DNA of 64,000 bases, taken from a virus (lineage: Duplodnaviria; Heunggongvirae; Uroviricota; Caudoviricetes). The stretch lies in IMG/VR virus record IMGVR_UViG_3300044212_000090. One strand, given 5' to 3'. The notes beneath the pieces were generated by a model. The model did no database searches, was not told where the DNA came from, and worked only from the letters and a program-made list of their open reading frames with translations. A program made the position numbers and the translations under genes. Shown in pieces: positions 700 to 53,831 of the stretch (position 1 is the first letter of the stretch; every line of letters begins with the position of its first letter).

Positions 700-783
700 C
701 GCTGCCGACTCCCCGCATGGCGGGAGTCTGTTATGGGCGTAGCCCCGGCACACGCCATGCTCGCCGACCGAGAACGGTCATAC

Positions 784-859: not shown

Positions 860-972
860 CGCAGTATCAGTAGGCTATGAGTTGGCAGCGTAGGTAACAC
901 TACCGGGTTAGTCGTGACCCCCAACGAGCTGAACGCATATAGCGACCGGTCGGGTGCAAGGCCCGGCAATAC

Positions 973-1046
973 GCCTCTATGGCTCAATCGGATAGAGCAG
1001 CCGCCTACGAAGCGGCAGGTTGCAGGTTCAAGTCCTGCTGGAGGCA
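973..1046 (+). tRNA. tRNA-Arg (anticodon ACG)
   Basis: Acceptor GCCTCTA/TGGAGGC, D-arm GGCTCAATCGGATAGAGC, anticodon stem GCCGC/GCGGC loop CTACGAA, T-loop GGTTCAAGTCC. Confidence 0.8.
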
Positions 1047-1179
1047 CAAGTCGGATGGAATATGCATGTTCTTCGGACGTGCAAAAAACCTGAAGCCGAG
1101 CAGTCGCTCTCTTCGGAGGGCATGGATTGAAATTCTGTGACCACCAACGAGCCGAACGCAATAGCGGACAGCCGGACGC

Positions 1180-5648: not shown

Positions 5649-6272
5649 ATGAACCAGCCCTCCATGACTCCCCGCAAAGCGGCCATCTACCTGCGCATAT
5701 CGCTCGACCGCGAGATGGACGGTCTGGCTATCGACCGCCAGCGCGAGCAGTGCGATGCGCTCGCCAAATACCGCCAGTGGCAGGTTGTCGAGACCTACGT
5801 CGACCAGTCGAAGAGCGCTACGGACCGCACCAAAGTCCGCCCTGCCTACGACCAGATGGTCGCTGACTACAAGGCTGGTGCCTTCGACGCCATCATCTGC
5901 TACGACCTCGACCGGCTCACTCGCCAACCCCGCCAGCTCGAAGACTGGATCGACGCATCCGAGCTGCGCGGCCTCGCCCTGGTCACCGCCAACGGCGACG
6001 CCGACCTCTCCACCGGTTGCTACACCGCAGGGGGCACTGGCGACATACCCAGCCTGTCCGACTTCGAGGACGCCTACCAAGGCCAATGGGACAGCTCCCG
6101 TGAGTACGCTGAACGGCTGGCCGACGACATCGGTCTCACCGACGGCTGGCCGGAGGAAGCCACCCGCTACTTCGACTGGGGCGCTGGACCCGAGACCTGC
6201 GCTTCGACTACACCGTCGCCGACGCCCCCGATGGTGGCGTCTTCGTGTTCCGCAACTACTGAACTCGCCTGA
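5649..6272 (+). pseudogene. serine recombinase (resolvase/invertase catalytic domain), truncated remnant
   Basis: AIYLRISLDREMDGLAIDRQREQC catalytic-Ser region and DLSTG motif present; sequence diverges right after DLSTG and lacks the E-helix/HTH or large C-terminal domain. Confidence 0.5.
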
Positions 6273-11333: not shown

Positions 11334-12617
11334 ATGGGTATCGTCATGAACGATGACAGATTCGGCAGCGTGATTGCGCGCAAGAACAGGAACGGCGACG
11401 CGGCCTCGTGGCGGGCGAAGTACCACAGTCCCATCGACGGCAGCCAGGTGACGCGCTCCTTCAGATCGAAGAGCGCGGCGTATGCTTGGCTCGATGATGA
11501 ACGCGACCTCGTGCGCGATCACATCAAGGGCCGGGCGGCATGGGTGCATCCGTCCGAGCGGGAGAGGCGCAAGAGGGGCGCGGACACGCTCTTGCGCGAA
11601 TACGCATGGGCATGGTACCGCAGGCACGGGCGGACGCGCGACGGGCATCCGCTGGCTCCGGCCACGCTGCGCTACAAGGACCTGGCGATGCTTAGGCTCG
11701 ACGCCGCGTTCGGCTCTCGCCCCCTGCGTTCCATATCGCAGCGCGACGTGGACGAATGGCTTGCCTCTCCCGGCTTCGGGGGACGAACCCCGCTGCGCAC
11801 GGCCTACCTGCTGCTGCGCTCCGTCATGGCGGCGGCCCAGAAGGATGGCTTAATCGATCGCAACCCTTGCGAGGCGGCTGTCCCCGCCAAGCCGAAGAGC
11901 GCCAATCGGCTCATCGCGCCCGCGACCCGAGAGCAGATCGCCCGCATCGAGGCGGCGATGCCGGAGTATTCGCGCATCGCCATACGGGTGGCGCTCGCGT
12001 TCGGCCTGCGGGCCGCGGAGATATGCGCGCTGAGGGTATGCGACTTCGACATGGACGCGATGATTCTGCGTCTGCGCCATTCCGTGCGCCGGGGCGAGGG
12101 GGATGTGGGGCCGCTGCGCCTGGACGGCATGAAGACCGATTCGAGCCGGGAGAACATGCCCATCCCGAGCGGACTCAAGCCGGTATTGGAGGAGCATATC
12201 GCCCGGTTCTGCGATACGGCGGGCGACGCCATGCTCATCCGCCCCGTGCGCTCCGCCGTTCTGAGCCCGAACACGCTGCGCGCCCAGTTCGACAGAGCGC
12301 GAATCAAGGCGGGACGCCCCGACCTGCATCTGCACACGCTTCGCGCCACGGCCATCAGCGAAGCGGTGCACCAGGGCGCCGAGCCCGCCGAGACCCAGCG
12401 CTTCGGGCGGCACGCGGATCCGCGCGTGAGCCTTCAGGCATACCAGCGCGCCCGGGGCGAGAGCCGCATGCGCGAACTGTCCGACGACGTGTACGCGAAC
12501 CTGTTCGGCCCATCGGGCCACGAGAGCGCCAAGGCGGAGCTGGAGCGCACGGTGCGGGAGGCGAAGCTGCTGAACGAGCGGATACTGCGATTGGAGCGGC
12601 AGGTGGCGCGAGGCTAG
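11334..12617 (+). CDS. int: tyrosine-type site-specific integrase
   Basis: C-terminal catalytic region with HxxR (HLHTLRAT) and terminal Tyr (LQAYQ) and an Arg-rich AP2-like N-terminal domain; 427 aa from ATG at ~11334. Confidence 0.8.
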   Translation: MGIVMNDDRFGSVIARKNRNGDAASWRAKYHSPIDGSQVTRSFRSKSAAYAWLDDERDLVRDHIKGRAAWVHPSERERRKRGADTLLREYAWAWYRRHGRTRDGHPLAPATLRYKDLAMLRLDAAFGSRPLRSISQRDVDEWLASPGFGGRTPLRTAYLLLRSVMAAAQKDGLIDRNPCEAAVPAKPKSANRLIAPATREQIARIEAAMPEYSRIAIRVALAFGLRAAEICALRVCDFDMDAMILRLRHSVRRGEGDVGPLRLDGMKTDSSRENMPIPSGLKPVLEEHIARFCDTAGDAMLIRPVRSAVLSPNTLRAQFDRARIKAGRPDLHLHTLRATAISEAVHQGAEPAETQRFGRHADPRVSLQAYQRARGESRMRELSDDVYANLFGPSGHESAKAELERTVREAKLLNERILRLERQVARG

Positions 12618-13561
12618 CGCCGCCGGATGCACACGCGCTTGTACTTCGCCTCGCCGCCCACCATGCTCTTGGCGAGGTCATAAGGGGCTACGCCCCCGTT
12701 GACCGCGCCGAGCAGCTCGAACGCGGCATCGGGCGAGGGCGAGAGCATGTCCATGACATTGATTGGCGCGCCCATCGGGCCGTGATAATCGTCGGGGATG
12801 AGATTCTTCGAGTCGCAGTCGATGATGTCCGTCCCGTCGAAATACGGGTGCAGTTTCGGGTCGTATGCCACGCCGGTATGGGCGTCCCCGCCCTTGCCAA
12901 TCAGTCCTGAGGGCAGATTCGTGAACCAGCGGATGCTGTTGAGGGCGACCGCGCGACGGCCCTCCCGCTCCTTGACCAGCACCGCGTCGATGTCGAAGCC
13001 GTAGCTGTCCGGGATGCGGAAGTATGTGTGATTGTCGGCGGTGCGCCCCAGCCAGCATCGCCCTTCGACGAACGCGGGCAGCACGGCGTGGTTGAGCGTC
13101 ATATTGAGGCTTCCTATCGCCAGGAACCCCTTGCGCGAGCGGTCGATCACGCGGAACCAGTCGTCCCAGAGCGAGAAGGGGGGGTTGCCCAGGACGACAT
13201 CGCACTGTGAGAGCATATCCAGCGCCTCAGGGCAGTCGAACGAGCCGGAGCCGGACAGGGGGGTGGGGATGAACTCCCCGTCTTTGAGATCCCATCGCGC
13301 CCCGCCGTCCCCGCCGAAGATGGTGTCCGTATCGGGCGAGTAGCTGATGCCGGTCACAGAGCGCAGGGAGAGGCGTCCCGCATTGTCGGCGGCCCACTGC
13401 ATGAACCGCGACTCCGGCCCGTCGTTGGTGTTGCACAGGATGCGCCTGCCCGCCAGGTCGGCGTCGTAGTGCGCGAGCTCGCGGTCCACGGTCTCGCGGA
13501 GCGTGTAGTACTCGTCGCGCTTGGCGCGCTGGGACATCAGGAGACCGGCATTTCGAGGCAT
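12614..13561 (-). CDS. orphan N6-adenine DNA methyltransferase, EcoRI-methylase-like family
   Basis: VLGNPPFS motif IV; N-terminal EYYTLxE segment typical of EcoRI_methylase-family proteins. Confidence 0.65.
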   Translation of the reverse strand: MPRNAGLLMSQRAKRDEYYTLRETVDRELAHYDADLAGRRILCNTNDGPESRFMQWAADNAGRLSLRSVTGISYSPDTDTIFGGDGGARWDLKDGEFIPTPLSGSGSFDCPEALDMLSQCDVVLGNPPFSLWDDWFRVIDRSRKGFLAIGSLNMTLNHAVLPAFVEGRCWLGRTADNHTYFRIPDSYGFDIDAVLVKEREGRRAVALNSIRWFTNLPSGLIGKGGDAHTGVAYDPKLHPYFDGTDIIDCDSKNLIPDDYHGPMGAPINVMDMLSPSPDAAFELLGAVNGGVAPYDLAKSMVGGEAKYKRVCIRRR

Positions 13562-13596: not shown

Positions 13597-14376
13597 ATGC
13601 TCACTCTTGGAGACTCCTATGAAACCGTCCCCCCCTCCGGCGCCGCGCTGGTCCTGACTGATCCGCCCTACGGCACCACGCACAACGCATGGGATGACAG
13701 GCCCGACCACGCGCGCCTGTGGGCGCTGCTCGACTCGTTCGGCTGCCCGGTCGTCTCCTTCGGGGGCTTCCGGCTCATCGCGGGGCTGGCGGGAGCGGCG
13801 GGCGATGCGTTCCGCTACGATCTGATCTGGGAGAAATCCTGGCCCGTGGGGTACCTCAACTCCGGGCGCCAGCCGCTGCGCGACCATGAGACGATCGGCG
13901 TGTTCGGGCGCGAGGCCGTGCCCTACCGCCCCCAGCGCGGCGGCGAGACGCTGGCCCATCCCGTCGCCAACGTCGCCTCCTTGCTCCGGCGGGGCGACAG
14001 GAACTACGGCAAGTGCGAGAACCGCACTATATGGATGGATGACGGCACGCGCTCCCAGTACTCGGTGCTGCACGCGGGCTACGGCCCTTATGACGCCAGA
14101 CGCAACGGCTCCATGCACCCCACCGCCAAGCCCGTCGACCTGCTCCGCATGCTCATCCGCATGTACAGCGAGCCGGGCGATCTCGTCTGCGATCCGTTCG
14201 CAGGCTCCGGCTCCACCGGCGTCGCCGCGAAGCTGGAGGGCCGAAGCTTCTTCGGGGTGGAGCGCGACCCGAAGTGGTTCAAGACGGCATCATCCCGCAT
14301 CGAGAGCGCGCAGCTCCAGCCGACCATCGACGGCGGGGACGAGCCACTGCCGGACATGAACCGGTTCGCATCGTGA
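13597..14376 (+). CDS. DNA methyltransferase, beta-class N6/N4 (N6_N4_Mtase family), orphan
   Basis: DPPY motif IV (LVLTDPPYGTTHN), HPTAKP, and DPFAGSGSTG motif I. Confidence 0.8.
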   Translation: MLTLGDSYETVPPSGAALVLTDPPYGTTHNAWDDRPDHARLWALLDSFGCPVVSFGGFRLIAGLAGAAGDAFRYDLIWEKSWPVGYLNSGRQPLRDHETIGVFGREAVPYRPQRGGETLAHPVANVASLLRRGDRNYGKCENRTIWMDDGTRSQYSVLHAGYGPYDARRNGSMHPTAKPVDLLRMLIRMYSEPGDLVCDPFAGSGSTGVAAKLEGRSFFGVERDPKWFKTASSRIESAQLQPTIDGGDEPLPDMNRFAS

Positions 14377-23007: not shown

Positions 23008-23115
23008 TGCAGGTACGTATGCGTCGTGGGCGAAGAGGCATCGAAGAGGAGGAGAAGCGAACATTCCCGATGTGCGCTTTCCGCGCTGGGAATCCGCTTC
23101 GACGAGCGGGTTTGC

Positions 23116-23361
23116 GCCGAATATGGGCACATGGGCCGTATGCAGTGACTAGTACCCATATGCGTTTTTCGTCGTTTTTCCAACGAAAATGGGCGAAACT
23201 GCATACAGAACATACAGGTGCATACGGGCCATATGCACCCCTCATCCCTACTGCCAGTAGGGCTTTAGCCCCCCTGCATATGAGCATATGGTTTATAGAG
23301 GCTTTGGCATGTTTTACCCCTATTTCGGGGTCTCTATAGGAAAAGCCGTATGCATATGCAG
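23116..23361. repeat. ~245-bp intergenic repeat, copy 1 (divergent promoter region; contains dyad CCCTACTG-C-CAGTAGGG)
   Basis: Near-identical to 28868..29111, reverse-complement of 42996..43232, related to 55440..55690. Confidence 0.8.
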
Positions 23362-23530
23362 TCTCGTGCTTTTCGGGGCGGAATCGACGGCGAGAACGAC
23401 GCCTCCTCTGTCGTCGCCCGCGTGCATCGCACATCCCAAATCGATGCCTCGCGAGGACGGACGCCGCAGACGCATAGCGGCGAGCTGAACACCAAGATCG
23501 GTCGAATCCACGATTGAAGGAGATAGACAA

Positions 23531-26500
23531 GTGAAACAAGGAAAGGCGACACGCGCCGCGGCGCTGGGAGCCACGCTGGCGATGCTGGCGGGAGCGGGGG
23601 CAGTATCTCCCGCCGCACTGGCGGACCCGCCCGCCCAGGATCAGCCGGGCGATTCGGGCTCGAACCCGGGCACGGGATCCACGCACACGGTGACGTTCGA
23701 TACCGGCGTGGACGGGCAGACCTACCCGCCGCAGACGGTCAACGACGCGAACGCCGCGGACCTGCCGACGCCCACGAACGGGGGGTCCCGCTTCGACGGC
23801 TGGTACAGCGGCGAAACGAGGTACGACGACAGCACCCCCATCACCCAGGATGTGACCCTCACGGCCCACTGGTCGAAGGCGGTCACAGTGACCGTCAAGT
23901 ACGGCAACGGCCAGGAGGACGTGAGCGTGCCTGCATTCGAGCACGACCTCTTCTCGCTCCCCGCCACGCTCGACCGCGCCGGCTATCGGTTCACCGGCTG
24001 GTCGCCCGACCCGACTACGCCGCTGAGCGAGGATACGACCTTCACGGCCCAGTGGGTCGCCGTGCATCAGGTGACGTTCGACTCCGACGGCGGCTCCGCC
24101 GTCGACTCCCCGCAGAGCGTGGACGACGGCACTCCCATCGCCAAGCCTGACGACCCGACGAAGGACGGACAGCTCTTCTCGGGCTGGACGCTCGCCTCTA
24201 CCGGCGCCCCCTACGACTTCAGCCAGCCGGTGACCGGCGACCTGTCGCTCAGGGCGACGTGGCGCGACGCCGTGCATCAGGTGACGTTCGATGTGAACGG
24301 CGGCACGAGCGTCGACGCGCAGTCCGTGCCCGACAGCCAGAGCGCCGCGAAGCCCGCCGACCCGACGAAGGCAGGCTCCCGCTTCGATGCGTGGCTGGAT
24401 GCCCACGGCGATCCGTACGACTTCAGCCACCCGGTGACCGGCGACGTGAGGCTGACCGCCAGGTGGGTGGCCCAGCACACGGTGACGTTCGACACCGGGG
24501 ATGGCGGCTCGCCCGTGCCCTCGCAGAGCGTGGACGACAAGGGCACCGCCGCGATGCCCGCCGACCCGACCCGCGACGGCTTCCGCTTCGACGGCTGGGA
24601 CTACGACTTCTCGGCTCCCGTGACCGGGGATGTGACCGTCACGGCCAAGTGGCATGCACTGCACCACACGGTGACCTTCGACACGGGCGGCGGCAGCGCC
24701 ATCGCGCCCAAGACCGTGGACGACGGCTCCGCCATCGGCGCGATGCCCGCCAATCCTACCCGCGCGGGCTACCGCTTCGCCGGCTGGCTCGGGCCCGACG
24801 GCAAGGCGTTCAACGCCTCGACGCCCATCACGGATGACACGACCATCACCGCCAAGTGGGTGGCCCAGGTCACGGTGACGTTCGACCCCGCGGGCGGGGC
24901 GCTGGCGGCTCCCGCCTCCCAGACCTTCGACGCGAACGCGAACGCCTCCAAGCCCGCCGACCCGACGAAGGAGGACAGCGAATTCCTCGGCTGGTTCGCG
25001 CCCGGCGCGAGCGCCCCGTTCGATTTCGCGAACACTCCGGTGACCGCCGACCTCACGCTCTCGGCCCGCTGGAAGGCGCTGCGCCACAAGGTGACGTTCG
25101 ACGCGAAGGGCGGCAGGGTCCCGGGGCTTCCGAGCTCCACGGTCATCGTGGCGACTGGAAGCCCCGTGTCCGCCCCCAACGTCCCGACGTTGGCTGCCCA
25201 CCGCTTCGATGGCTGGTACGGCCCGGACGGCGCCAAGTACGACTTCGCAACCCCCGTGGATGACGACATCACGCTCACGGCCCGCTGGACCGCGCTCTAC
25301 GACGTGACGTTCGACTCCGACGGCGGCTCGCAGGTGGCTTCGCAGACCGTGCCCGACGGCGAAACGATCAAGCCCGTCGCCGACCCGACCAAGGCTTGGA
25401 ACGCCTTCCGGGGCTGGACGCTCGACGGGCGGCCGTTCAACGCGACAACACCGATCACGAAGTCCATCACGCTCAAGGCGACGTGGGCCCCGGCTTCGCT
25501 GACCGTCGTCGCCTTCGGCGCCCTTCCCGCCGACGGCGTGAAGACGTTCAACAGCAACAAGCCGCTGCCCGCCTCGCTGACCGTCACCGACGGCACGGAC
25601 AGCTTCACGGCGCCGCAGGTCTCTCTTACGCACGACGACAGCCAGGCGTTCGGGCGGATCGTGGACACGGGCATCTACGCCCAGTCGGCGACGGGCGGAC
25701 AGCCGAGCGCGAACGTGACCGTGGTCTCCACCCAGGGCTCCGCGCTGAACGTGGACGGCATCGCCTTCGCCCGGAACGGCGACGGCACATGGTCCGCGAC
25801 CGTCTCCCGCGCGCTGGACAAGGGCAACGACTCCGCGAGCCGCACCATCGCCCTCTCGGACGGCACATCCGCCGACTGGACGTGGAACGCCCCCGCCGCG
25901 GCGGCGGGCTCGGGCTTCGTGGCCCGGCAGGGCACGGCGACGTTCGCGCTGCCCAACGGGCAGAGGGGCGTGGTGCACGTCAACGCGCAGCGCAGCTACG
26001 ACGCCTCGCTCTCGCTGTCCGTGAGCCGCACGGATGCGAGCGGCAATACGTCGGCCATCCCGGTCATGACCGGCACGGCCGACGCGCCGGGCGGCCCCTA
26101 CACGCTGGGCAAGCTGCCGCACTCCGCCATCTCGGATGCCTACCGCGTGTCCTACGCGGCCGGCCCCGACGTGACGGGCGTGGACGTCGCCCCGGGCCTG
26201 GGCGCGCACGGCGAGCGCACTTTCGCCGTGACCATCCATTACCTGGATGCGGCCGGTGCGGCGCAGACCTCGAACGCCTCCATCACGCTGCCCTTCGACG
26301 CGGCCTCCGTGCAGCCGAGCGCCCCGAGCTCCGCGGCCCTGAAGGCCATCCTGGTCAACGGGCAGCCGATCGCGGGCTGGAACCCCGACGTGCTCGACTA
26401 CACCATCGTCGCCCCGGACGCCTCCACCACGTATCTGGTGAGCCCGCAGGCGGGCGACGGGCAGAGCGTGGTCGCGGGCGACAGCGTGAAGTCCGCCTAC

Positions 26501-27451
26501 GCCACCAAGCAGCTGTGGACGGTGACCGGGCCGGACGGAGCGAAGCGCGCCTACTCGGTCACGGTCGTGCGCCCGCACACGACGCCCACCGCCGACGAGA
26601 AGTTCGTCCCCGCTCTCTCCAAGGACGTCGGCGGGAGCGAGGCCGCGCCGGATGCGACCTCCACGGCGCTCAGGTCCTACGGGTACGTGGACAAGGATGG
26701 CAAATACACGCCCGTCACGGACGGCTCGATGGTCATCCCCGACGGGGGGACGTTCGCCTACGAGACGTACGCAGGACAGGTCGCCAAGGTCACCCGCACG
26801 AAGGTCTCGGGCACCACGTGGAGCTACGACGTGGATGTGTTGAGCCCTGACGGGGCGCACGTGGCCCGCACCACCGTGAAGGCCACGTACGTCACCCCGG
26901 CCACGCACGCCGCGGCCCTCACGGGCGTCAAGTTCGACGGCGCGGCCCTGAAGGGCTTCGACCCGAACAGGCACGACTACACGGTGGGCGTGGACAACCC
27001 CGACCGCTACGTGATCACCCCGCTGTTCGACGCGATGGACGGCATGAGCGTGTCCGTGCGCAAGACGGGCCATACCGCCACGGTCACCGTGACCAGCGCG
27101 GACGGCCTGACGGTCGCGGTCTACACGTTCCACGTGACCACCCGCGAGCTCGCAGACGCCATCAACGGCGTGAAGGGCGCCGCCGCCGCGCTGACCGGGA
27201 ACGGGAGCGGCGATGCGCTTGCGCAGACCGGCGCGAAGCTCACGGTCGGCATGGTCGTCGGACTCGCCGCCGCCGCGATCCTCTGGGTCGCAGCGGGTGC
27301 CTCGCTGGCGCTTCGCCGCCATCTGAGGAAGTCCGAGGGCGAATCCGACGTGACGGACGAGGGCGCGCAGCCCGAGGCGGCGGGCGAAGAGCCTGAAGCC
27401 CCGGAGCCGGAGGTCCCGGACGAGAGTGCGGAAGGCGCACCGGAGGAGTAA
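23531..27451 (+). CDS. LAQTG-anchored cell-surface protein with multiple Listeria-Bacteroides (Flg_new) repeats
   Basis: GTG start, signal peptide, >10 repeats of VTFDxxGG...P.R.GY.F.GW, C-terminal LAQTG + TM helix + RRHLRK tail (sortase class-E type sorting signal). Confidence 0.8.
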   Translation: MKQGKATRAAALGATLAMLAGAGAVSPAALADPPAQDQPGDSGSNPGTGSTHTVTFDTGVDGQTYPPQTVNDANAADLPTPTNGGSRFDGWYSGETRYDDSTPITQDVTLTAHWSKAVTVTVKYGNGQEDVSVPAFEHDLFSLPATLDRAGYRFTGWSPDPTTPLSEDTTFTAQWVAVHQVTFDSDGGSAVDSPQSVDDGTPIAKPDDPTKDGQLFSGWTLASTGAPYDFSQPVTGDLSLRATWRDAVHQVTFDVNGGTSVDAQSVPDSQSAAKPADPTKAGSRFDAWLDAHGDPYDFSHPVTGDVRLTARWVAQHTVTFDTGDGGSPVPSQSVDDKGTAAMPADPTRDGFRFDGWDYDFSAPVTGDVTVTAKWHALHHTVTFDTGGGSAIAPKTVDDGSAIGAMPANPTRAGYRFAGWLGPDGKAFNASTPITDDTTITAKWVAQVTVTFDPAGGALAAPASQTFDANANASKPADPTKEDSEFLGWFAPGASAPFDFANTPVTADLTLSARWKALRHKVTFDAKGGRVPGLPSSTVIVATGSPVSAPNVPTLAAHRFDGWYGPDGAKYDFATPVDDDITLTARWTALYDVTFDSDGGSQVASQTVPDGETIKPVADPTKAWNAFRGWTLDGRPFNATTPITKSITLKATWAPASLTVVAFGALPADGVKTFNSNKPLPASLTVTDGTDSFTAPQVSLTHDDSQAFGRIVDTGIYAQSATGGQPSANVTVVSTQGSALNVDGIAFARNGDGTWSATVSRALDKGNDSASRTIALSDGTSADWTWNAPAAAAGSGFVARQGTATFALPNGQRGVVHVNAQRSYDASLSLSVSRTDASGNTSAIPVMTGTADAPGGPYTLGKLPHSAISDAYRVSYAAGPDVTGVDVAPGLGAHGERTFAVTIHYLDAAGAAQTSNASITLPFDAASVQPSAPSSAALKAILVNGQPIAGWNPDVLDYTIVAPDASTTYLVSPQAGDGQSVVAGDSVKSAYATKQLWTVTGPDGAKRAYSVTVVRPHTTPTADEKFVPALSKDVGGSEAAPDATSTALRSYGYVDKDGKYTPVTDGSMVIPDGGTFAYETYAGQVAKVTRTKVSGTTWSYDVDVLSPDGAHVARTTVKATYVTPATHAAALTGVKFDGAALKGFDPNRHDYTVGVDNPDRYVITPLFDAMDGMSVSVRKTGHTATVTVTSADGLTVAVYTFHVTTRELADAINGVKGAAAALTGNGSGDALAQTGAKLTVGMVVGLAAAAILWVAAGASLALRRHLRKSEGESDVTDEGAQPEAAGEEPEAPEPEVPDESAEGAPEE

Positions 27452-28818: not shown

Positions 28819-28867
28819 GAGGGACGGCTATGCGGCGCCGAAAGAAGCGATTTGGTACTTTATTGCT

Positions 28868-29111
28868 CCGAATATGGGCACATGGGCCGTATGCAGTGAC
28901 TAGTACCCATATGCGTTTTTCGGCGTTTTTCCGCGAAAAACAGCCGAAACTGCATACAGAACATACGGGTGCATACGGGCCATATGCACCCCTCATCCCT
29001 ACTGCCAGTAGGGCTTTAGCCCCCCTGCATATGAGCATATGGTTTATAGAGGCTTTGGCATGTTTTACCCCTATTTCGGGGGTTCCATAGGAAAAGCCGT
29101 ATGCATATGCA
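28868..29111. repeat. ~245-bp intergenic repeat, copy 2
   Basis: Near-identical to copy 1; lies between divergent genes 27844..28818(-) and 29239..30609(+). Confidence 0.8.
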
Positions 29112-29238
29112 GTTCTGCCCTTTTCGGGGCCATATCCGCGAAAAAGAGGACGCTATCGCGTTCGCAGCCCACAGCTCTCGGAGAGGCCTCGCCCCTAATC
29201 GAGGCCATCCTCGCACCTTCCGACGCATACCGCCCTTC

Positions 29239-37037: not shown

Positions 37038-38636
37038 TCAGCCCCGGAAGAAGTCGCTGATGACGTTCGGCGTGCTCGTATCGAACCCCACGACGTCAAG
37101 CTGCCCGACGTCGGTCGGATCGGCTATCGAGAAGCCGCTGGAGGTCATGCCGACCACGGCGAGCCGTGCGTCGATGCCCGAGGCCCTGCGGTACTCGGCG
37201 AGCGCCTGCGTGGGCTTGATGTCGCCCGCGAAGGTCTCATTGTCGGTCAGGATTTCAAACGAATCGAACTCCTTGCCATGCTCCTTCGCCCAGACCATCG
37301 GCAGGGCGCAGTCGGTGGCCCCCATCGGCAGGCCGGAGATGGCGCAAAGATTGTCGTCGAGGCGGCGGCGCGGGGAGACGTCCAAGGGGGTCAGCTCCGC
37401 GCCCGTATTCCAGCCGAAGCTGTCCGCGCTCTTCGCGGTGAAGCCCACGATTTCATATTCGCGCTCTGACTTCGCGGTGACCATCGCCAGCGCGGCGGAT
37501 GCCTCGCGTGGCGTGATGGGCAGCCCCGCGATGGAGTCATAGCCCATCGAGCCGGAGATGTCCAGGGCCAGCAGCGTGCGCCTGCCGGTCGGCTCCACCG
37601 CGTCGAACGAGAGGTAGAACGCCTCGTCCAGCACATCGCAGATGCGATGGACCGGCGTCCATGTCAGCGAGCCCTTGAGGCCATGTCCGGAGGCGTACGT
37701 CTTCAGGGCCACGAGCAGGGCGAGCGGGTGCAGCCGCGCCCGCTTGATGGCCTCCGCATCGGTCAGGCGCTCAGCCACGCCGCCAAGCACGCCCAACTTG
37801 GTCAGCCGGGGGAGCTGGCGCATCAGGGCTCCCAGCGGCACGGAGTCGTTGTCCAGCAGCGCCCGCCAGACCTCGGGGGAGTTCAGGGCCTCGGAGGGCA
37901 GCGCCTCCCACGGAAGACGGGAGAATGCCCTGTCGGCCCGCAGGGCCGTCGCGAGGTCCTTGGGGACCATGCGCTGCGCCTCCTCAAACGCCCTGGTGAA
38001 GTCCGAGCCGCCCGTGCGGTGGGCCATCCAGTCGAGGATTGCCGCGGTGGCCTCGTCATCGGTCTTCGGGTGCGAGAGGCGCAGCAGATCGCGGTGGGTC
38101 CACCCGTCGCGCTGGCGGTACTTGACGGCCTGATACTCCAGTGCCGAGGCGTCGCGGGCGGTGTACCAGGACGCCACGGCGCGGCGAAGGGCGCGCCCCC
38201 AGCCTCGGAACTGCTCGGCGTAGGCCACGAACATGAACAGGTGCGTGGAGGTGCGGGCGACCTTCGGCAGCGCCTCAAGCGCGTAGGAGCGCCCCGCGTC
38301 GTCCGCGACGGAGGCCGCGACGGCGAGCGCGAAGAGCGCCGGGTTCTGGCGGGGCGCGCGCCCGTTCGCGGACACGTCCACGATGGCGTCCACCAGCGCT
38401 TGAGGTTCGGACTTCGCCAGCGCGAAGACGACCCCGGCGTTCTCGCGGGCGTATTCGGTCGGCTTGGCGTAGTAGGTGCCGCCGTCCACTCCGAGGATGA
38501 GGAAGCGATGCAGGCGCTTCATGTCGTCGACTGCGAATACGTAGCCGCCGGCGGAGTTCCTCGTCTCGTCGGCCCGGCCCGGCGTGCGCTCGGTCTGCGG
38601 GGTGCGGCGGGTGGATATGGTCTTCAGGGCGTCCAT
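37038..38636 (-). CDS. rsr: Ro60-like ribonucleoprotein Rsr (TROVE domain + vWA)
   Basis: ~530-aa product with long TROVE-like helical region and vWA MIDAS motif (LALDISGSMGY); start MDALKTIS taken inside the 783-aa frame whose 5' part overlaps the Y-RNA locus. Confidence 0.7.
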   Translation of the reverse strand: MDALKTISTRRTPQTERTPGRADETRNSAGGYVFAVDDMKRLHRFLILGVDGGTYYAKPTEYARENAGVVFALAKSEPQALVDAIVDVSANGRAPRQNPALFALAVAASVADDAGRSYALEALPKVARTSTHLFMFVAYAEQFRGWGRALRRAVASWYTARDASALEYQAVKYRQRDGWTHRDLLRLSHPKTDDEATAAILDWMAHRTGGSDFTRAFEEAQRMVPKDLATALRADRAFSRLPWEALPSEALNSPEVWRALLDNDSVPLGALMRQLPRLTKLGVLGGVAERLTDAEAIKRARLHPLALLVALKTYASGHGLKGSLTWTPVHRICDVLDEAFYLSFDAVEPTGRRTLLALDISGSMGYDSIAGLPITPREASAALAMVTAKSEREYEIVGFTAKSADSFGWNTGAELTPLDVSPRRRLDDNLCAISGLPMGATDCALPMVWAKEHGKEFDSFEILTDNETFAGDIKPTQALAEYRRASGIDARLAVVGMTSSGFSIADPTDVGQLDVVGFDTSTPNVISDFFRG

Positions 38637-38711
38637 GATAGGGGCTCCTTCTTTGTTCGGACCGCCCGATGTGGCGGTCATGTGTCTGACGTGGGATATA
38701 TGCGTCCCGGA

Positions 38712-38768
38712 AACAGGAAAAGCCCTCGCGAGCGGTCGTGCAGACCGCCTGCGAGGGCTTTTCCTGAT
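38712..38768 (-). terminator. rho-independent terminator downstream of the Y-RNA-like gene
   Basis: AAAAGCCCTCGCAGGCGGTC-TGCAC-GACCGCTCGCGAGGGCTTTT followed by CCTGTTTCC on the minus strand. Confidence 0.6.
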
Positions 38769-38770
38769 AA

Positions 38771-38918
38771 GAAGAGAACGGCGGACATGTTGTGGAATCC
38801 GGAAAATACGCGCTCTGCCAACTGAGCTACACGGGCATGGAGCCCGTGGCGGGACTTGAACCCGCGACCTCGCCGTTACCAGTGGATAACCGGATTCCCC
38901 CGGCCCGCCATTCTCTTC
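38771..38918 (-). ncRNA. yrlA: YrlA-type bacterial Y RNA (Ro-binding-like terminal helix + permuted tRNA-like module)
   Basis: Termini pair as GAAGAGAAUGGCGG/CCGCCGUUCUCUUC and GGAAUCCGG/CCGGAUUCC around an internal loop. Core contains T-arm GCGGG-UUCAAGU-CCCGC, then an acceptor-like stem closed by a loop (CACGGGC-UCCAU-GCCCGUG), then D-arm GCUC-AGUUGG-CA-GAGC. Sits immediately upstream of rsr on the same strand. Confidence 0.6.
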
Positions 38919-39705
38919 GACTCTTAAGTTGTATGTGCGTCGGACATGTGACTGGCATCGGAGGATATCGTATGCAGGAGATAACCGATGCCATCCGGCC
39001 CGCCGCACATCCACCCTATGCGTCCCGCTTCTCGTTCCTCCAGCCGTCCAGGGATTGGATATAGCAGCCTTCGAGAAGACGCAGCATCCGCCATGGCTCC
39101 GACTGCCGATGCGATTCCAGTAGTCGTCGCCGAATTTGTGCGCAATGTCAAGGATGGCACCGCCCGGCTCGGTGATGACATAGTAGCCATCGGCGTCAGG
39201 TTCGTCCGCATCCCTGTTCAGCAGGATGCGGCGATCGCGAATTTCAGGGGACACCTCATGCAGCCAATCGACCAGCCATCCGAACTGCTGGCCCCCCAGC
39301 TCGATGTCCAGGATGTGCTCTGATGCCCTCGCCTCGCCCGGCTTGTAGAACGCGATGCGCATGCCATCGCCCATACGCGCGAAGAACATGGCTATCCGCT
39401 TGTCGCTCCATCCGAGAACCGCCCGAAGTCGATGCTGTCGAATGCTCCGCTTGGCCCGACGAGCCGAAATGCGAGTCGCTCACTTCATTGTGCTCGAACC
39501 CTTGGGGATTGCCGAGGCCATGCCCAAGGAGCCATGAGACGAAGGGGGCCACGAACGACGCCGGCTCATTGAAGCCGCCGAGCGGGCGCAGCCCGCCGGG
39601 CGTGTACTGCACGACGGAGAAGCGCAGTCCGCCGCCGTCGCGGCGCGAGAGCGTGAGCCTCAGGTCCGTTGCCGCCATCCAGATCGACATGCCTGTCATC
39701 TTCCG

Positions 39706-42745: not shown

Positions 42746-42995
42746 GCTCTCCATATGCGTCCCGGATGGGCGGGTATGATCGATTCCCGCGAGCGACAAG
42801 AGCATTAGGGATATGGGGCCGGACGAGCTGAAGGCTGCGGCGACAGAGAGCGAACAGGCGCGCGCCGCAGTGGACGCCGAGCGCCGGCGGCGATGGGATT
42901 CGTTCAAGGAAATCCCGAAAACGCCTTTCAAGAGCATCCTCGACTGGTCGCGGCGCGCCCGGCGTCCATTAACGGAATCCCCGTAAATCATCGAA

Positions 42996-43232
42996 CTGCA
43001 TATGCATACGGCTTTTCCTATAGAGACCCTGAAACAGGGCTAAATCACACTAAAGCCCCTATAAACCATATGCTCATATGCAGGGGGGCTAAAGCCCTAC
43101 TGGCAGTAGGGATGAGGGGTGCATATGGCCCGTATGCACCCGTATGTTCTGTATGCAGTTTCGCCCATTTTCGGCGGAAAAACGCCGAAAAACGCATACG
43201 GGTGCTAGCCGGCGCATACGGCGCATATGCCT
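42996..43232. repeat. ~245-bp intergenic repeat, copy 3 (inverted orientation)
   Basis: Reverse complement of copies 1/2 with a diverged distal end; between divergent genes 42344..42745(-) and 43227..43703(+). Confidence 0.75.
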
Positions 43233-50672: not shown

Positions 50673-51053
50673 CTACTGCGCAGACAACATCTCAGGCCAC
50701 TTGTCCTCGGCGATGCTCTCGCACTGCTCCTTCGAGGGCGCGTAGACCCAGCCCTCTCCGACCACAGGCCCGTCTTCGCAGAGGCCCCGGTAGTCGGGTC
50801 CCAGACAGACGGCTTCGCAGAAGCCGCGTTCCATCGACCAGAGGTCGCCTAGGCCGGCATCCGTCAGCACCGTGAGTCCTTCGATGAAATAGCGCTCGTA
50901 CTCGCCCGGGGACGAGGCCTTCACCCGCGACGCGATGCGCCTGGCGTCCTCCGCGCTCGCGCACGCGCAGATCGTGCGGAACTCCTCGCCCGTGTCGCCG
51001 GATATCAGATAGATCCTATCGGGCACGATGCCGCCTCTTCCTTCGTCAGACAT
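50673..51053 (-). CDS. hypothetical Cys-rich protein
   Basis: 126-aa ORF. Confidence 0.45.
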   Translation of the reverse strand: MSDEGRGGIVPDRIYLISGDTGEEFRTICACASAEDARRIASRVKASSPGEYERYFIEGLTVLTDAGLGDLWSMERGFCEAVCLGPDYRGLCEDGPVVGEGWVYAPSKEQCESIAEDKWPEMLSAQ

Positions 51054-51258
51054 TCTCCTGCCTTTCGTTGAGCGTGATGGCGTCCCATCGCGTGTATATG
51101 GCTGTCACCTGGCCAGACGGAGCGACCTTGCCGCCCGCCCGGTCGACGATGCAGAGCATCGTGCGTTTCTCGTTCGGCTCCGCCGCGTACGCATCGGCGG
51201 GCCATTCGCTGTAGTCGCCGCCGACGTAGACGCGGTGGAATCTGCGAATGGCTTTCAT
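51046..51258 (-). CDS. small hypothetical protein
   Basis: 70-aa ORF. Confidence 0.4.
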   Translation of the reverse strand: MKAIRRFHRVYVGGDYSEWPADAYAAEPNEKRTMLCIVDRAGGKVAPSGQVTAIYTRWDAITLNERQENV

Positions 51259-51713: not shown

Positions 51714-51970
51714 GACTTGGCCTCCGCATCCGGATACCGCTGCGCGAATTCCGCATCGTCGAAGAGGAGTATGGATTCGATCTCGCCATACGGGATCATC
51801 GTGAGCACGCCCACCTCCGGGCCTTCATGGGACATGAAGTTCCTGAAGCAGGCGGGGTCCTCCACGATGCGACCTATGGGGCGGAAAGACAGGAAGTGTT
51901 CGTCCTCGCCGTATCCGTCCGCGACGAGGACGCGGCTGCAGCTTCCGACATTGACGAGGATCCTCATTCC
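51710..51970 (-). CDS. small hypothetical protein
   Basis: Start MRILVNVG within 146-aa frame. Confidence 0.4.
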   Translation of the reverse strand, partial: GMRILVNVGSCSRVLVADGYGEDEHFLSFRPIGRIVEDPACFRNFMSHEGPEVGVLTMIPYGEIESILLFDDAEFAQRYPDAEAKS

Positions 51971-52500
51971 GTCCCCTTCGGCGCTCCGGGCAGCAGCCGC
52001 TGCATCACGCGGCCGAAGGATTCGAGCGCGAACGGGCGGGACTCCGCGCCGCCCGCGAGCTTGACGGTCACGCCGCCCCTGCGGCCCGGCTTCCACGCCA
52101 CGCCGTCGGGGATGGCCCCGTCGTGCGCGGCGATGGACTTGGACAGCCACGCGGGGGAGGTGACCTCGGGCACCGGATAGTTCACCGTGATGACGCTCGG
52201 GCGTCCGCCCACGGTGATGTCGTGCTCCACGAGGAAGTCCCCGAACGCAAGCGGGTCGGACACCTCGTATCTGCCCTCGCCGTCCTTGGACACGCTGATG
52301 GTCGCGGAGGGAGCGCCGTCGAACACGGCGTCCTCGCTCTCGGAGTCCGCATCGTGCGTGCGCAGATACTCGGCCTTCGCGGCCTTGAACGCGCCGTCGA
52401 TGCGCTTGGAGAGGATCTGCATGCCCGCCATCGCGGCGCGCAGCTGGTCCTCGGGCAGGTCGGAGAAGTCGAACTCGTCCGCCTTGGTCTTCTTGGTCAT
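51964..52500 (-). CDS. hypothetical protein (weak resemblance to phage Gp157/Gam-like proteins; speculative)
   Basis: Start MTKKTKADEFDF; 178 aa. Confidence 0.4.
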   Translation of the reverse strand: MTKKTKADEFDFSDLPEDQLRAAMAGMQILSKRIDGAFKAAKAEYLRTHDADSESEDAVFDGAPSATISVSKDGEGRYEVSDPLAFGDFLVEHDITVGGRPSVITVNYPVPEVTSPAWLSKSIAAHDGAIPDGVAWKPGRRGGVTVKLAGGAESRPFALESFGRVMQRLLPGAPKGTE

Positions 52501-52559
52501 GGCCTTTCCTTTCATTGGGCAGAATCGCCTATGATCGCCATATGCGTCCCATTCGCGCA

Positions 52560-53140
52560 ATCCTGTGACGCATATGCGTATCCAGCGCGCGACGTCAACG
52601 TTCTCCATAAAGACGATGGCGGCGGCAGAAGCCCCTTACTGCTTCGTAACGGACCGGGCCAGCGCCGCGCGCATTGCTTTCCTTCGGGACGCACACGAAA
52701 CACTGCGCGGCGTCAACGTCGCTGCATCGAATGGTTTCAACAGCATTCGGCGCGGAGCGATGGCGGGGAGCAGCCCGATCGATCACCTCGGCAAGCCACG
52801 ACCCCCGCCAGCGCCGCGCCTTTTCCTCTTATCGGACGCATAGCGCGTATCGCACGGCGTCAACGTCGCCGCCGCGGATCCTTTGAGACAGTCCGTGGGC
52901 GGATCGATGGCGGGGATAGGACGATTTAGACAACCTTTTTCGTCTGCTGAAGCCCCGCCAGCGCCGTGCATTTTCCTTATCGGACGCATAGGCATTATCA
53001 GAACGCGGCGTCAACGCCGCTGCCCTGCGGGCTTTACGGGATCATTCACTCGCGGGATTGCAGAACGATGGCGGGCGAGGATGGTCTGATAACCTTCCAC
53101 CCGATGACCCCGCCAGCGCCGCGCTCTTCCTCTTTTCAGA
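52560..53140. repeat. tandem array of four degenerate ~140-bp repeats
   Basis: Each unit carries GCGGCGTCAACG(T/C)CGC ... GATGGCGGG ... CCCCGCCAGCGCCG(C/T)GC ... TT(A)TCGGACGCATAG. Confidence 0.7.
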
Positions 53141-53831
53141 ATTCCGGCTCGTCCGGGTCTGCGATGAACGAGCCGCGCACCTCCCTGATGCCCGCCAGCC
53201 TCTTCCAGACATCCTCGGGGATGTCCACTCGCTCGCCGTTCGGCCCGTCCACGCGCTTCACGCCCCAGATGCCCACCAGCGCCGCGTCGTGCAGCGCGTG
53301 GGAGAAGTCCGGGCCGCTCACGGGCAGCGCTCCGGGGATGGCCCAGGCGTTGAACGGGGCATCTAGGGGATCGAGCGTGGGGCGCGGATGCTCGGGGGGC
53401 TGGTATCGCTTCGGCGCGACGGCGAGCAGCGCATGCGCGAACTCGACCGGCATCTCGCGGGCGACGTGCGCGACTGTCTCAAGGGACAGGGCGCGGGCCA
53501 TGGCCTCGTCGCCGTCCATGCCCCGGACGTGCAGCGCCGAGGCGAATGCGGCGGCCGTGGCGAACGGCATTCCGTTCAGGCCCAGCGCCCCGTAGCAAGA
53601 GCGCAGCCACGACCATGACTCGCCGTCGTCCTCAGGCACGCGACAGGGAACATCCGGCAGGAACTCGAAGTACGGGCGCCAACTCAGCTCGCCCTCATGC
53701 ATCGCCGCATCCCGCTCGCGCCCGTGGCCCGGCTGCTCCGCGCGATGCATGGCGATGGCGGCGTCCGCCGCGCGGAGCAGCCCGTCGTCGGCGGACGAGA
53801 GCGAGAAGGCATTGAAGTCTATGGTCAGCAT
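53136..53831 (-). CDS. hypothetical protein
   Basis: Start MLTIDFNAF 10 nt after GACGCATA motif. Confidence 0.45.
   Translation of the reverse strand: MLTIDFNAFSLSSADDGLLRAADAAIAMHRAEQPGHGRERDAAMHEGELSWRPYFEFLPDVPCRVPEDDGESWSWLRSCYGALGLNGMPFATAAAFASALHVRGMDGDEAMARALSLETVAHVAREMPVEFAHALLAVAPKRYQPPEHPRPTLDPLDAPFNAWAIPGALPVSGPDFSHALHDAALVGIWGVKRVDGPNGERVDIPEDVWKRLAGIREVRGSFIADPDEPEF

What the first reader, a model, noticed from the sequence alone, without database searches (positions are those of the whole stretch)
52560..53140. Fourfold tandem ~140-bp repeat between two minus-strand operons, each unit encoding a conserved mini-ORF
Units begin with GCGGCGTCAACG(T/C)CGC, contain GATGGCGGG and CCCCGCCAGCGCCG(C/T)GC, and end with TT(A)TCGGACGCATAG. 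In three units an ATG within GATGGCGGG opens a 28-30-codon frame. Two of them, units B and C, end PPAPR-x-F-(L/S)-L-S-D-A-stop at the conserved GACGCATAG; in unit A the TAG is mutated (GACGCACAC) so the frame reads through; unit D is a degenerate fourth copy. Candidate functions: iteron-type origin (oriV/oriT) of the element, a stack of promoters, or a set of repeated leader peptides. No CRISPR-like unique spacers are present.
Basis: seen in the sequence. Interest (0 to 1): 0.55.

Follow-up and report, generated by a model that had tools for sequence, protein, structure and literature searches.

The report
Four tandem small structured RNA genes
The 635-base gap between two genes of an uncultivated mobile element most likely holds four side-by-side copies of a previously undescribed small RNA gene, each apparently with its own promoter and terminator, rather than mini-proteins or a replication origin.

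Summary
The repeat is real. Four units of about 120-155 nt fill the gap at 52501-53135. Short blocks are near-invariant and the sequence between them has diverged. The mini-ORF is not conserved: the frame differs between units, and a relative has a 6-codon version.

Each unit starts with GACGCA(T/C)A(N). Elsewhere in the window this motif sits exactly 8 nt before the ATG of 13 genes, so it looks like a -10-only promoter for leaderless mRNAs. In five units, the same 8 nt separate it from the first base of a helix, P1. P1 pairs the 5' end with the sequence just before a U/C-rich tail.

The predicted RNA is about 115-135 nt long and folds as a three-way junction. Five base pairs show compensatory changes. 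G-U pairs outnumber A-C by 8 to 1, which favours the + strand.

No Rfam family, phage, plasmid or reference genome matches. The array occurs only in close metagenomic relatives, with 4 or 3 units, and is absent from a syntenic distant relative.

Best reading: sibling non-coding RNA genes of unknown, probably protein-binding, function. Transcription has not been shown.

The parts
52540..52548 (-). Promoter-like motif GACGCATAT for the 178-aa gene 51964-52500(-). It sits back-to-back with the U1 promoter. The predicted leader of about 33 nt contains the SD ggaaagg.
52567..52575 (+). Promoter-like motif GACGCATAT of unit U1.
52585..52687 (+). U1, a decayed unit. P1 is GCGCGCGACG/CGCCGCGCGC with one mismatch, P2 is missing, P3 is weakened, and the tail is attgctttccttcgg.
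   Evidence: covariance model 25 bits, E = 4e-6
52688..52696 (+). Variant promoter motif of U2: GACGCACAC here, GACGCATAC in relative L003. Compare GACGCACAT in front of the YrlA-like RNA.
52705..52834 (+). U2 predicted RNA. P1 5' strand GCGCGGCG is at 52705-52712 and P1 3' strand CGCCGCGC at 52812-52819. The tail cttttcctcttatcg is at 52820-52834.
   Evidence: model 120.5 bits
52835..52843 (+). Promoter-like motif GACGCATAG of U3.
52852..52982 (+). U3 predicted RNA. P1 is GCACGGCG (52852-52859) with CGCCGTGC (52962-52969), carrying the compensatory G-C to A-U change. The tail is attttccttatcg. Fold z-score is -4.2.
52983..52991 (+). Promoter-like motif GACGCATAG of U4.
53000..53138 (+). U4 predicted RNA. 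P1 is AGAACGCGGCG (53000-53010) with CGCCGCGCTCT (53117-53127). The U/C-rich tail overlaps the stop codon of the convergent gene.
51964..52500 (-). 178-aa protein gene, divergent from the array. It is the only gene found next to the array in all three lineages. Function unknown.
53136..53831 (-). 231-aa protein gene, convergent with the array. It is leaderless: GACGCATAC + 8 nt + ATG. Function unknown.

Best explanation
The array is four tandem paralogous genes for a small non-coding RNA of about 115-135 nt, on the + strand. Three are intact and one (U1) has decayed.

Each gene is an autonomous transcription unit built as follows:
- A -10-only promoter, GACGCA(T/C)A(N). This is the same element that drives the leaderless protein genes of this region.
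- A transcription start about 8 nt downstream, at the first base of helix P1.
- A three-way-junction fold. P1 pairs the 5' end with the 3' end. P2 and P3 are hairpins with conserved bases and free-to-vary tips. The junction strands are conserved: NNAACGYC and RGANCGA.
- A U/C-rich tail straight after the 3' strand of P1, acting as terminator.

Shown here: the repeat, the block conservation, the fold with compensatory changes, the strand bias, and the fixed promoter-to-helix spacing.

Inferred: that the units are transcribed, where the RNA ends lie, and what the RNA does.

The invariant parts are helices and junctions, not an accessible single-stranded seed. No above-chance complementarity to the rest of the window was found. 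I therefore think the RNA most likely acts in trans by binding a protein, as decoy, scaffold or regulator, with copy number supplying dosage.
For: 1. Promoter motif.
- GACGCA[TC]AN occurs 38 times in the window. In 13 cases an ATG opening an ORF of at least 50 codons follows at exactly +8, and in 17 cases at +7 to +9. Only 0.9% of random positions show this (sequences).
- No SD and no conserved -35 accompany it.
- The motif also precedes the tRNA genes and the YrlA-like RNA.
- It is kept in distant relatives.

2. Spacing. In U2, U3, U4 and in L006 units 2 and 3, the first base of P1 lies exactly 8 nt after the motif (sequences).

3. Fold.
- RNAalifold on five units gives P1/P2/P3 with 25 pairs.
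- 94.4% of cells are paired, against 33-51% when partners are slid.
- 5 pairs and 7 cells have changes on both sides. No shuffle out of 500 reaches the observed covariation score.
- Single-sequence z-scores on the + strand are -5.5, -4.1, -4.2 and -2.6 for four of the units.

4. Strand. There are 8 G-U cells, which pair only on +, against 1 A-C cell, which would pair only on -.

5. Terminator syntax. The U/C-rich tail plus next promoter (ccuuuuccucuuaucg|GACGCATAG) matches the syntax after the canonical hairpin terminator of the YrlA-like RNA (cuuuuccuguuuccgg|GACGCATAT). The last unit keeps the tail although no promoter follows it.

6. Conservation pattern. Blocks are invariant across paralogues and across a relative whose flanking protein is 85% identical, while the intervening sequence differs.

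7. Precedent. NsiR1 of Nostoc is encoded in 12 tandem copies, each with its own promoter (PMC9045159).
Against: - There are no expression data, so the promoter function of the motif and both RNA ends are inferred.
- The consensus scan found no sigma-70 promoter and no canonical intrinsic terminator in the region. The proposed terminator is a long-range helix closing about 100 nt, which is unusual.
- Only seven units from two lineages exist. Some are orthologous or recombinant, so the compensatory changes represent few independent events. The A-U pair in P1 of U3 and of L006 unit 2 may be a single event.
- The structure tested was derived from the same sequences.
- U1 scores poorly, and L006 unit 1 lacks the motif.
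- No Rfam family matches.
- The array is absent from a syntenic distant relative, so it is dispensable for the neighbouring genes.
Confidence: 0.6

Rival explanations
1. The array is a cis-acting insulator or antisense module. The + strand promoters fire head-on against read-through from the upstream minus-strand operon. Their short transcripts pair with that read-through RNA and uncouple the two operons. The RNAs would have no trans function.
For: In the syntenic relative L053 the two flanking genes are only 35 nt apart in one direction. The array therefore sits exactly where read-through would occur. The proximal NsiR1 copy acts as an antisense RNA on the neighbouring gene (PMC9045159). All + strand evidence for transcription units applies here too.
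Against: This does not explain why a three-way-junction fold and specific junction sequences are conserved while loops vary. The 178-aa gene keeps its own promoter between array and gene. One promoter-terminator pair would be enough.
Confidence: 0.15
2. The fold forms in single-stranded DNA, not RNA. The units would be strand-specific signals used during rolling-circle or conjugative transfer of the element, such as single-strand initiation sites, sso-like sites or recombination sites.
For: The window looks like a mobile element. It encodes an integrase, an RDF, a transposase, an FtsK/SpoIIIE-like ATPase, a Dda/PIF1-like helicase, an ArdA-like domain and many orphan methylases. Compensatory changes and G-T tolerance are also compatible with folded ssDNA.
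Against: This does not predict the promoter motif at a fixed 8 nt before P1 in five units, nor the U/C-rich tail after P1. Four tandem copies of such a signal are not usual. No relaxase or Rep gene was recognised among the neighbouring proteins scanned. GC skew does not change at the site.
Confidence: 0.1
3. The array is a set of duplex DNA binding sites for a protein: iterons of an origin, a centromere, or an operator array controlling the divergent 178-aa operon.
For: Short invariant blocks recur at a regular period. One block has dyad symmetry (GGCG-N4-CGCC). The array abuts the promoter of the 178-aa gene.
Against: The period is 144-161 nt and varies. The central four bases and the arms of the 'palindrome' change in ways that keep hairpin pairing (GGCG-AUAA-CGUC, GGCG-CGAA-CGCC). 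P2 keeps pairing with different sequences. There is no AT-rich region, and the neighbouring proteins scanned match no replication, partition or DNA-binding family.
Confidence: 0.08
4. The units encode repeated leader or micro-peptides of 27-30 aa starting at the ATG in GATGGCGGG.
For: An ATG lies in a conserved block, and one unit (U2) has a 27-codon ORF ending at the conserved TAG.
Against: Frame and length are not conserved among paralogues or in the relative: 27, 60, 31+, 6 and 28 codons, with three different frames across the conserved block. There is no properly spaced SD. The conserved parts coincide with the helix strands.
Confidence: 0.02

Closest known systems
NsiR1 tandem sRNA array of Nostoc/Anabaena (12 copies upstream of hetF)
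   Same: Both are head-to-tail repeats in an intergenic region upstream of a gene. Each repeat is a small-RNA gene with its own copy of a specialised promoter motif. Peripheral copies are more diverged than the others (PMC9045159).
   Different: NsiR1 is about 60 nt, a simple base-pairing sRNA with known mRNA targets, and its proximal copy overlaps the hetF 5' UTR in antisense. Here the units are about 115-135 nt with a three-way junction. Conservation lies in helices and junctions. No target complementarity was found, and the first unit does not overlap the neighbouring 5' UTR.
Bacterial Y RNAs (Yrn1/Yrn2 cluster of Deinococcus; YrlA/YrlB next to rsr)
   Same: Size is 80-130 nt. A terminal stem is made by the 5' and 3' ends. 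Several sibling RNAs can be clustered. A Ro60/TROVE gene with a YrlA-like RNA lies in the same window (PMC4201824).
   Different: The units lack the GNCGAAN0-1G motif and a tRNA-like domain, and they do not hit Rfam YrlA or Y_RNA. They lie about 14 kb from the Ro60 gene on the opposite strand, whereas Y RNAs are reported within 4 kb on the same strand.
Other sibling sRNA clusters (e.g. LhrC1-4 of Listeria, PrrF1/2 of Pseudomonas, Qrr of Vibrio). Named from my own knowledge; not tested here.
   Same: These are multiple adjacent paralogous sRNA genes, each with its own promoter and terminator, giving dosage or diversification.
   Different: Those are Hfq-type or seed-pairing sRNAs with canonical hairpin terminators. 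They share no sequence or structure with these units.
Iteron, centromere and ToxI-type repeat arrays (plasmid iterons, F sopC 43-bp repeats, type III antitoxin RNA repeats). From my own knowledge.
   Same: All are short conserved sequences repeated in tandem in a mobile element.
   Different: Those units are 17-50 nt at a fixed period. They bind a neighbouring Rep, Par or toxin protein, and ToxI is co-transcribed with its toxin on the same strand. None of these features holds here.

Membership tests
Tandem sibling sRNA genes (NsiR1-type array) | Every repeat carries its own promoter | tested here: met
   The motif GACGCA(T/C)A(N) lies in the + orientation in front of U1-U4 and of L006 units 2 and 3. 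The same motif sits 8 nt before 13 leaderless ORFs. Promoter activity itself is inferred.
Tandem sibling sRNA genes (NsiR1-type array) | Every repeat ends in a terminator | tested here: inconclusive
   The canonical scan finds none. All seven units have a G+C-rich helix followed by a U/C-rich tail like the one after the YrlA-like RNA's hairpin terminator.
Tandem sibling sRNA genes (NsiR1-type array) | Discrete small transcripts are produced from each repeat | not testable with these tools
   No expression data are available for these metagenomic contigs.
Bacterial Y RNA (YrlA/YrlB/Yrn) | GNCGAAN0-1G (Ro60/Rsr-binding) motif near the 5' end | tested here: not met
   The units have GUCAACG, GAUAACG or GCGAACG at that place. 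The window's own YrlA-like RNA does have GUCGAAG near its predicted 5' end. Motif definition is from PMC4201824.
Bacterial Y RNA (YrlA/YrlB/Yrn) | tRNA-like domain, or a match to the Rfam YrlA or Y_RNA models | tested here: not met
   No hit in 52300-53400 even at E <= 10. The same library finds YrlA at 38782-38894.
Bacterial Y RNA (YrlA/YrlB/Yrn) | Encoded within about 4 kb of the Ro60 gene on the same strand | tested here: not met
   The array is about 14 kb from the Ro60 gene (37038-38634, -) and on the + strand.
Bacterial Y RNA (YrlA/YrlB/Yrn) | 80-130 nt with a long stem formed by the 5' and 3' ends | tested here: met
   P1 of 8-11 bp joins the predicted ends, and the predicted length is about 115-135 nt.
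Iteron-type origin or partition-site array | Short duplex binding sites at a fixed period, next to an AT-rich region and a rep or par gene | tested here: not met
   The period is 144-161 nt and GC is about 0.65. The neighbouring proteins that were scanned have no Rep, Par or relaxase domain. Compensatory changes indicate a single-stranded fold.
Type III toxin-antitoxin RNA array (ToxI-like) | Tandem repeats of about 34-50 nt directly upstream of, and co-transcribed with, the toxin gene | tested here: not met
   Units are three times longer. Strand evidence points away from the 178-aa gene, and that gene has its own promoter. The protein has no fold or family match.
Leader peptide or micro-ORF repeats | Reading frame and stop conserved among copies and relatives | tested here: not met
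   Frames and lengths differ: 27, 60, 31+, 6 and 28 codons.
CRISPR array | Identical 28-37 nt repeats separated by unique spacers of similar length | tested here: not met
   Three different conserved blocks of 10-17 nt occur per 150-nt unit. No cas genes were recognised among the proteins scanned.

The most novel reading that the evidence does not exclude
The units are a new class of ribonucleoprotein RNA made by a mobile element, with a constant three-way-junction scaffold and two hairpin tips that differ in every copy. There are two candidate roles. They could be additional partners of the element's own Ro60/YrlA RNA-surveillance module. Or they could be scaffold-plus-variable-loop RNAs whose tips give each copy a different specificity, as guide or decoy against host or competitor factors. 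Nothing found here excludes this, and nothing supports it beyond the architecture and the presence of Ro60, YrlA, tRNA genes and an RNA-repair-type HAD domain in the same window.
Probability: 0.1. Interest if true: 0.75.

Novelty: new member of a known kind. Interest (0 to 1): 0.45.

Why it matters
If the units are transcribed as predicted, this is a new structured RNA family with no Rfam match. It is carried in multiple copies by an uncultivated high-G+C mobile element that also encodes Ro60, a Y RNA and tRNAs. That suggests the element invests in RNA-level interactions with its host.

The analysis also exposes the element's transcription syntax. A 9-nt -10-only motif lies exactly 8 nt before start codons or RNA 5' ends, and it is usually preceded by a U/C-rich terminator tail. 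This syntax can be used to annotate genes and non-coding RNAs in this lineage.

For the scan itself, the result corrects a tempting misreading. The apparent peptide conservation is nucleotide conservation of helix strands.

Tried and rejected
- **Rfam** at gathering score over the window, and at E <= 10 over the array: nothing except a chance sX7 hit at E = 2.
- **Tandem Repeats Finder and the promoter/terminator scan:** no call in the array.
- **Pattern scans for the P3 hairpin plus P1 strand:**
  - 185,579 reference genomes gave 41 single hits scattered over unrelated phyla.
  - IMG/VR gave 1 hit, and JGI metagenome contigs gave 1 hit.
  - None of these loci has more than one match, and the two read (IMG/VR, JGI) have the match inside or straddling coding-like sequence, so I treat them all as chance.
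- **BLAST of the array and of 25 kb around it against phage and plasmid collections:** no match, apart from an L5 gp64-like RDF gene.
- **Homologues of the flanking proteins:**
  - Only 2-3 close clusters exist.
  - L051, which carries a partial homologue of the 231-aa protein, has no array.
  - Remote homologues of the 178-aa protein (44-50% identity) in L052 and L053 have no array.
- **The 178-aa protein:**
  - It has no Pfam match. It has no PHROG match on its own, and only 3 of the 32 aligned homologues give weak PHROG hits, to families without a description. A PDB sequence profile finds nothing.
  - The AlphaFold model is good with 32 homologues (pLDDT 86; it was poor with 3 sequences).
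  - Foldseek finds nothing in the PDB and only weak uncharacterised phage proteins in BFVD.
- **Target search:** the array has no above-chance identity or complementarity to the rest of the window. The J1/2 motif is not enriched elsewhere.
- **Y RNA idea:** rejected on motif, model, distance and strand.
- **Minus-strand sigma-70 promoter idea** (TTGACG from the reverse of GTCAACG): rejected, because the hexamer is not kept in L006 (GTTATC, GTTCGC) and no -10 follows at a usable spacing.
- **Host taxon:** not determined.

Full report
**1. What is there**

The finding lies in the 635-nt gap between two minus-strand genes. The upstream gene is 53136-53831(-), 231 aa, with its stop at 53136-53138. 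The downstream gene is 51964-52500(-), 178 aa, with the SD ggaaagg.

The repeat finder reports four copies of each conserved block, with start-to-start spacings of 144-161 nt. A MAFFT alignment of the four units has 66% mean column identity. It shows near-invariant blocks separated by sequence that has diverged almost completely.

Exact copies of GGCGTCAACG, CGATGGCGGGG and CCCCGCCAGCGCCG occur nowhere else in the 64 kb. A self-BLAST recovers the repeat at E = 5e-11. Tandem Repeats Finder misses it because the units are too diverged.

**2. The mini-ORF is not real**

I translated from the ATG inside GATGGCGG in every unit.
- U1: a 75-codon read-through that crosses the conserved block as ASAAR.
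- U2: MAGSSPIDHLGKPRPPPAPRLFLLSDA-stop, 27 codons.
- U3: a 60-codon ORF that reads PPAPCIFLIGRIG and passes the TAG, because its tail is 2 nt shorter.
- U4: an open frame running into the neighbouring gene.
- The relative L006: MAGEEW-stop, a frame reading DPASAAHF, and one reading SASAARF.

Three different frames cross the same conserved nucleotides. What is conserved is the nucleic acid, not a peptide.

**3. A promoter motif gives the orientation**

The block GACGCATA(G/T) is not specific to the array.
- GGACGCATAG with at most 1 mismatch occurs 22 times in the window, against 4.9 expected.
- Using GACGCA[TC]AN there are 38 sites. In 13 of them an ATG that opens an ORF of at least 50 codons follows at exactly +8, and in 17 at +7 to +9. 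Only 0.9% of random positions do so (sequences).
- These starts have no Shine-Dalgarno sequence. No -35 element is conserved upstream (position counts).

The simplest reading is a -10-only promoter whose start site falls on or next to the start codon, giving leaderless mRNAs. This is an inference from position statistics, not a measured start site.

Four further observations fit.
- The motif precedes genes with leaders, including the 178-aa gene at 52548(-).
- It precedes the tRNA genes at 234 and 932.
- It precedes a YrlA-like RNA (below).
- It is present in front of homologous genes in relatives only 44-50% identical.

In the array the motif occurs four times, always in the + orientation: 52567, 52688 (variant GACGCACAC; GACGCATAC in L003), 52835 and 52983. 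No ORF follows any of them. The copy at 52567 is back-to-back with the minus-strand copy at 52548, which explains inverted repeat I14.

**4. A conserved fold that starts where transcription should start**

Folding each unit gives the same architecture.
- Helix P1 joins GCGCGGCG at the start with CGCCGCGC just before the T-rich tail.
- A central hairpin P2 follows.
- Hairpin P3 is formed by (C)GATGGCGGG(G) and CCCCGCCA(GCG).

RNAalifold on the five good units (U2-U4 plus L006 units 2 and 3) predicts the same 25 pairs. Counting them gives the following:
- 94.4% of cells are paired, against 33-51% when the 3' partners are slid by 1-3 columns.
- 5 pairs and 7 cells have changes on both sides.
- No shuffle out of 500 reaches the observed covariation score.

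Examples of compensation: P1 is GCACGGCG/CGCCGUGC in U3 and L006 unit 2 but GCGCGGCG/CGCCGCGC elsewhere. P2 is built from quite different sequences in every unit, for example a perfect 12-bp CCGCAUUGCGGG/CCCGCGAUGCGG in L006 unit 2.

Single-sequence z-scores on the + strand are -5.5, -4.1, -4.2, -2.6 and -0.8.

The first base of P1 lies exactly 8 nt after the promoter motif in U2, U3, U4 and L006 units 2 and 3 (sequences). That is the same distance as motif-to-ATG in the leaderless genes. The predicted RNA therefore begins at the first base of its terminal helix and ends in the U/C-rich tail that follows the other strand of that helix.

**5. Which strand**

In the consensus pairs there are 8 G-U cells, which pair only if the + strand is read. 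There is 1 A-C cell, which would pair only on the minus strand.

The tail is U/C-rich only on the + strand: ccuuuuccucuuaucg, cauuuuccuuaucg, ucuuccucuuuuca. It resembles the tail after the canonical 13-bp hairpin terminator of the YrlA-like RNA (cuuuuccuguuuccgg), which is likewise followed at once by the next GACGCATAT promoter. The last unit keeps its tail although no promoter follows it.

Motif orientation, wobble bias and tail all point to the + strand. That direction is divergent from the 178-aa gene and convergent with the 231-aa gene.

**6. Relatives**

The flanking proteins are very rare. The 5.8-billion-protein collection holds two close clusters for the 178-aa protein and three for the 231-aa protein.
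- Contigs L001-L005 (Logan and JGI metagenomes) carry a nearly identical 4-unit array.
- L006 and L007, whose 178-aa protein is 85% identical, carry a 3-unit array with the same block order, the same spacing rule and diverged loops.
- A covariance model built from the five units finds all array units: 110-120 bits for the good ones, 49 bits for L006 unit 1 and 25 bits for U1. It finds nothing else in the window or the related loci.
- Remote homologues of the 178-aa protein have no unit. One of them, L053, is syntenic (GmrSD, 229 aa, 172 aa, Metallophos). There the two genes are 35 nt apart with only a GGACGCATAA motif between them.

The array is thus a young, lineage-specific and copy-number-variable insertion at an operon junction. 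It is not an indispensable part of the neighbouring genes.

Pattern scans of reference genomes, IMG/VR and JGI contigs gave only single hits, which I treat as chance matches. BLAST against phages and plasmids gave nothing.

**7. Context**

The window looks like part of a large mobile element or phage-like element of a high-G+C, probably actinobacterial-type, host. It contains:
- four tRNA genes
- at least four DNA methyltransferases
- a resolvase/ArdA-like protein
- a tyrosine integrase
- an L5 gp64-type RDF
- a transposase
- a Dda/PIF1-like helicase
- an FtsK/SpoIIIE-like ATPase
- a lysozyme
- surface adhesins
- GmrSD
- a Ro60/TROVE protein
- a HAD domain of the RNA-repair type

Directly upstream of the Ro60 gene, Rfam's YrlA model matches 38782-38894(-). 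The score is 42 bits with E = 4e-7, below the gathering score, but the match is full length with T- and D-arm sequences.

That prompted the Y-RNA idea for the array. I tested it against the published criteria (PMC4201824).
- The terminal stem and the size fit.
- The GNCGAAN0-1G motif is absent. The window's own YrlA-like RNA does have GUCGAAG near its predicted 5' end.
- There is no tRNA-like domain and no model hit.
- The array is about 14 kb from the Ro60 gene, on the other strand.

Membership is not supported. A functional link to Ro60 remains pure speculation.

**8. Mechanism**

The best-supported reading is an array of autonomous small-RNA genes, like NsiR1 of Nostoc, where 12 tandem copies each have their own promoter (PMC9045159).

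The function is unknown. The invariant nucleotides lie in P1, in the base of P3 and in the two junction strands (NNAACGYC and RGANCGA), while the hairpin tips vary. No above-chance complementarity to the rest of the window exists. I therefore favour a protein-binding RNA (decoy, scaffold or regulator) over a seed-pairing sRNA, with several copies providing dosage.

The 5' strand of P1 can alternatively form a local hairpin with an NNAA tetraloop: GCGGCG-UCAA-CGUCGC, GGCG-AUAA-CGUC and GGCG-CGAA-CGCC. This excludes P1, so a conformational switch that affects termination is possible but untested.

The rivals are scored in the report sections: a cis insulator or antisense module, a single-stranded DNA signal, duplex binding sites, and leader peptides. 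The last is effectively refuted.

**9. Limits**

- There are no expression data.
- Only two diverged lineages exist, and the paralogues are related by descent and perhaps by recombination.
- The tested structure was derived from the same sequences.
- The proposed terminator is non-canonical.
- The partner protein, the host and the type of element are unknown.
- The 178-aa neighbour gave a confident model (pLDDT 86) but no informative fold, PDB or family match.

**10. Verdict**

This is a real feature and a probable new small-RNA family in four tandem copies. It counts as a new member of a known kind, sibling sRNA gene arrays. Interest is moderate, because the function is open and the family is so far confined to a handful of metagenomic contigs.

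Noticed in passing
window 38782-38894 (-), extended about 38924-38718: A YrlA-like Y RNA lies directly upstream of the Ro60/TROVE gene. The Rfam RF02553 match scores 42.3 bits, E = 4e-7, below the gathering score of 69, but is full length with T- and D-arm sequences. The Ro60 ORF is 37038-39389 and its likely start is ATG 38634. The RNA is preceded by GACGCACAT (38941-38933), has GUCGAAG near its predicted 5' end, can form a long terminal stem (GAAGAGAAUGGCGGGC/GUCCGCCGUUCUCUUC), and ends in a 13-bp hairpin terminator.
   Followed up: partly
whole window, e.g. 1874, 13578, 13580, 19547, 29222, 31635, 46915, 53848, 59962, 63507: A region-wide motif GACGCA(T/C)A(N) sits exactly 8 nt before ATG start codons without an SD (13 of 38 sites at +8). 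It often follows a U/C-rich terminator tail directly. It looks like a -10-only promoter for leaderless mRNAs. No -35 is conserved. It is also present in relatives L052 and L053.
   Followed up: partly
window 23112-23379, 28863-29130 and 42979-43231 (inverted): A dispersed repeat of 255-268 bp is present in three copies at 90-93% identity. Each copy lies just upstream of a gene: a 1306-aa surface protein, a Dda-like helicase and the RDF. Each contains A-rich short repeats (gaaaaacgcc) and an AACGCATAT motif. It could be a shared regulatory region or a MITE-like element.
   Followed up: no
window 295-1047 and flanks (234-1190): A cluster of four tRNA genes (Gln-CTG, Arg-CCT, Lys-CTT, Arg-ACG) is interspersed with a repeated CGAACGAGCCGAACGC-like sequence and promoter motifs. 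This fits tRNA genes carried by the element itself.
   Followed up: no
window 1892-2845, 6415-8412, 12614-13561, 13597-14376, 5649-6272: There are four DNA methyltransferase genes (two N6_N4, one N6_Mtase/Eco57I-like, one EcoRI-methylase-like) and a protein with resolvase plus ArdA-like matches. No restriction endonuclease was recognised among the proteins scanned. The set looks like an anti-restriction toolkit.
   Followed up: no
L003 11437-12228 versus window about 51050-51250; L053 3516-4289: Relatives L003/L004 carry an extra Metallophos phosphoesterase gene in the operon downstream of the 178-aa gene, and the window lacks it. The distant relative L053 has it directly after the 172-aa homologue. 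This is gene-content flux in the operon.
   Followed up: no
window 24024-25424: Internal protein-coding repeats of about 190-210 nt (65-74% identity) lie within the 1306-aa Listeria-Bacteroides-repeat surface protein gene (23531-27451).
   Followed up: no
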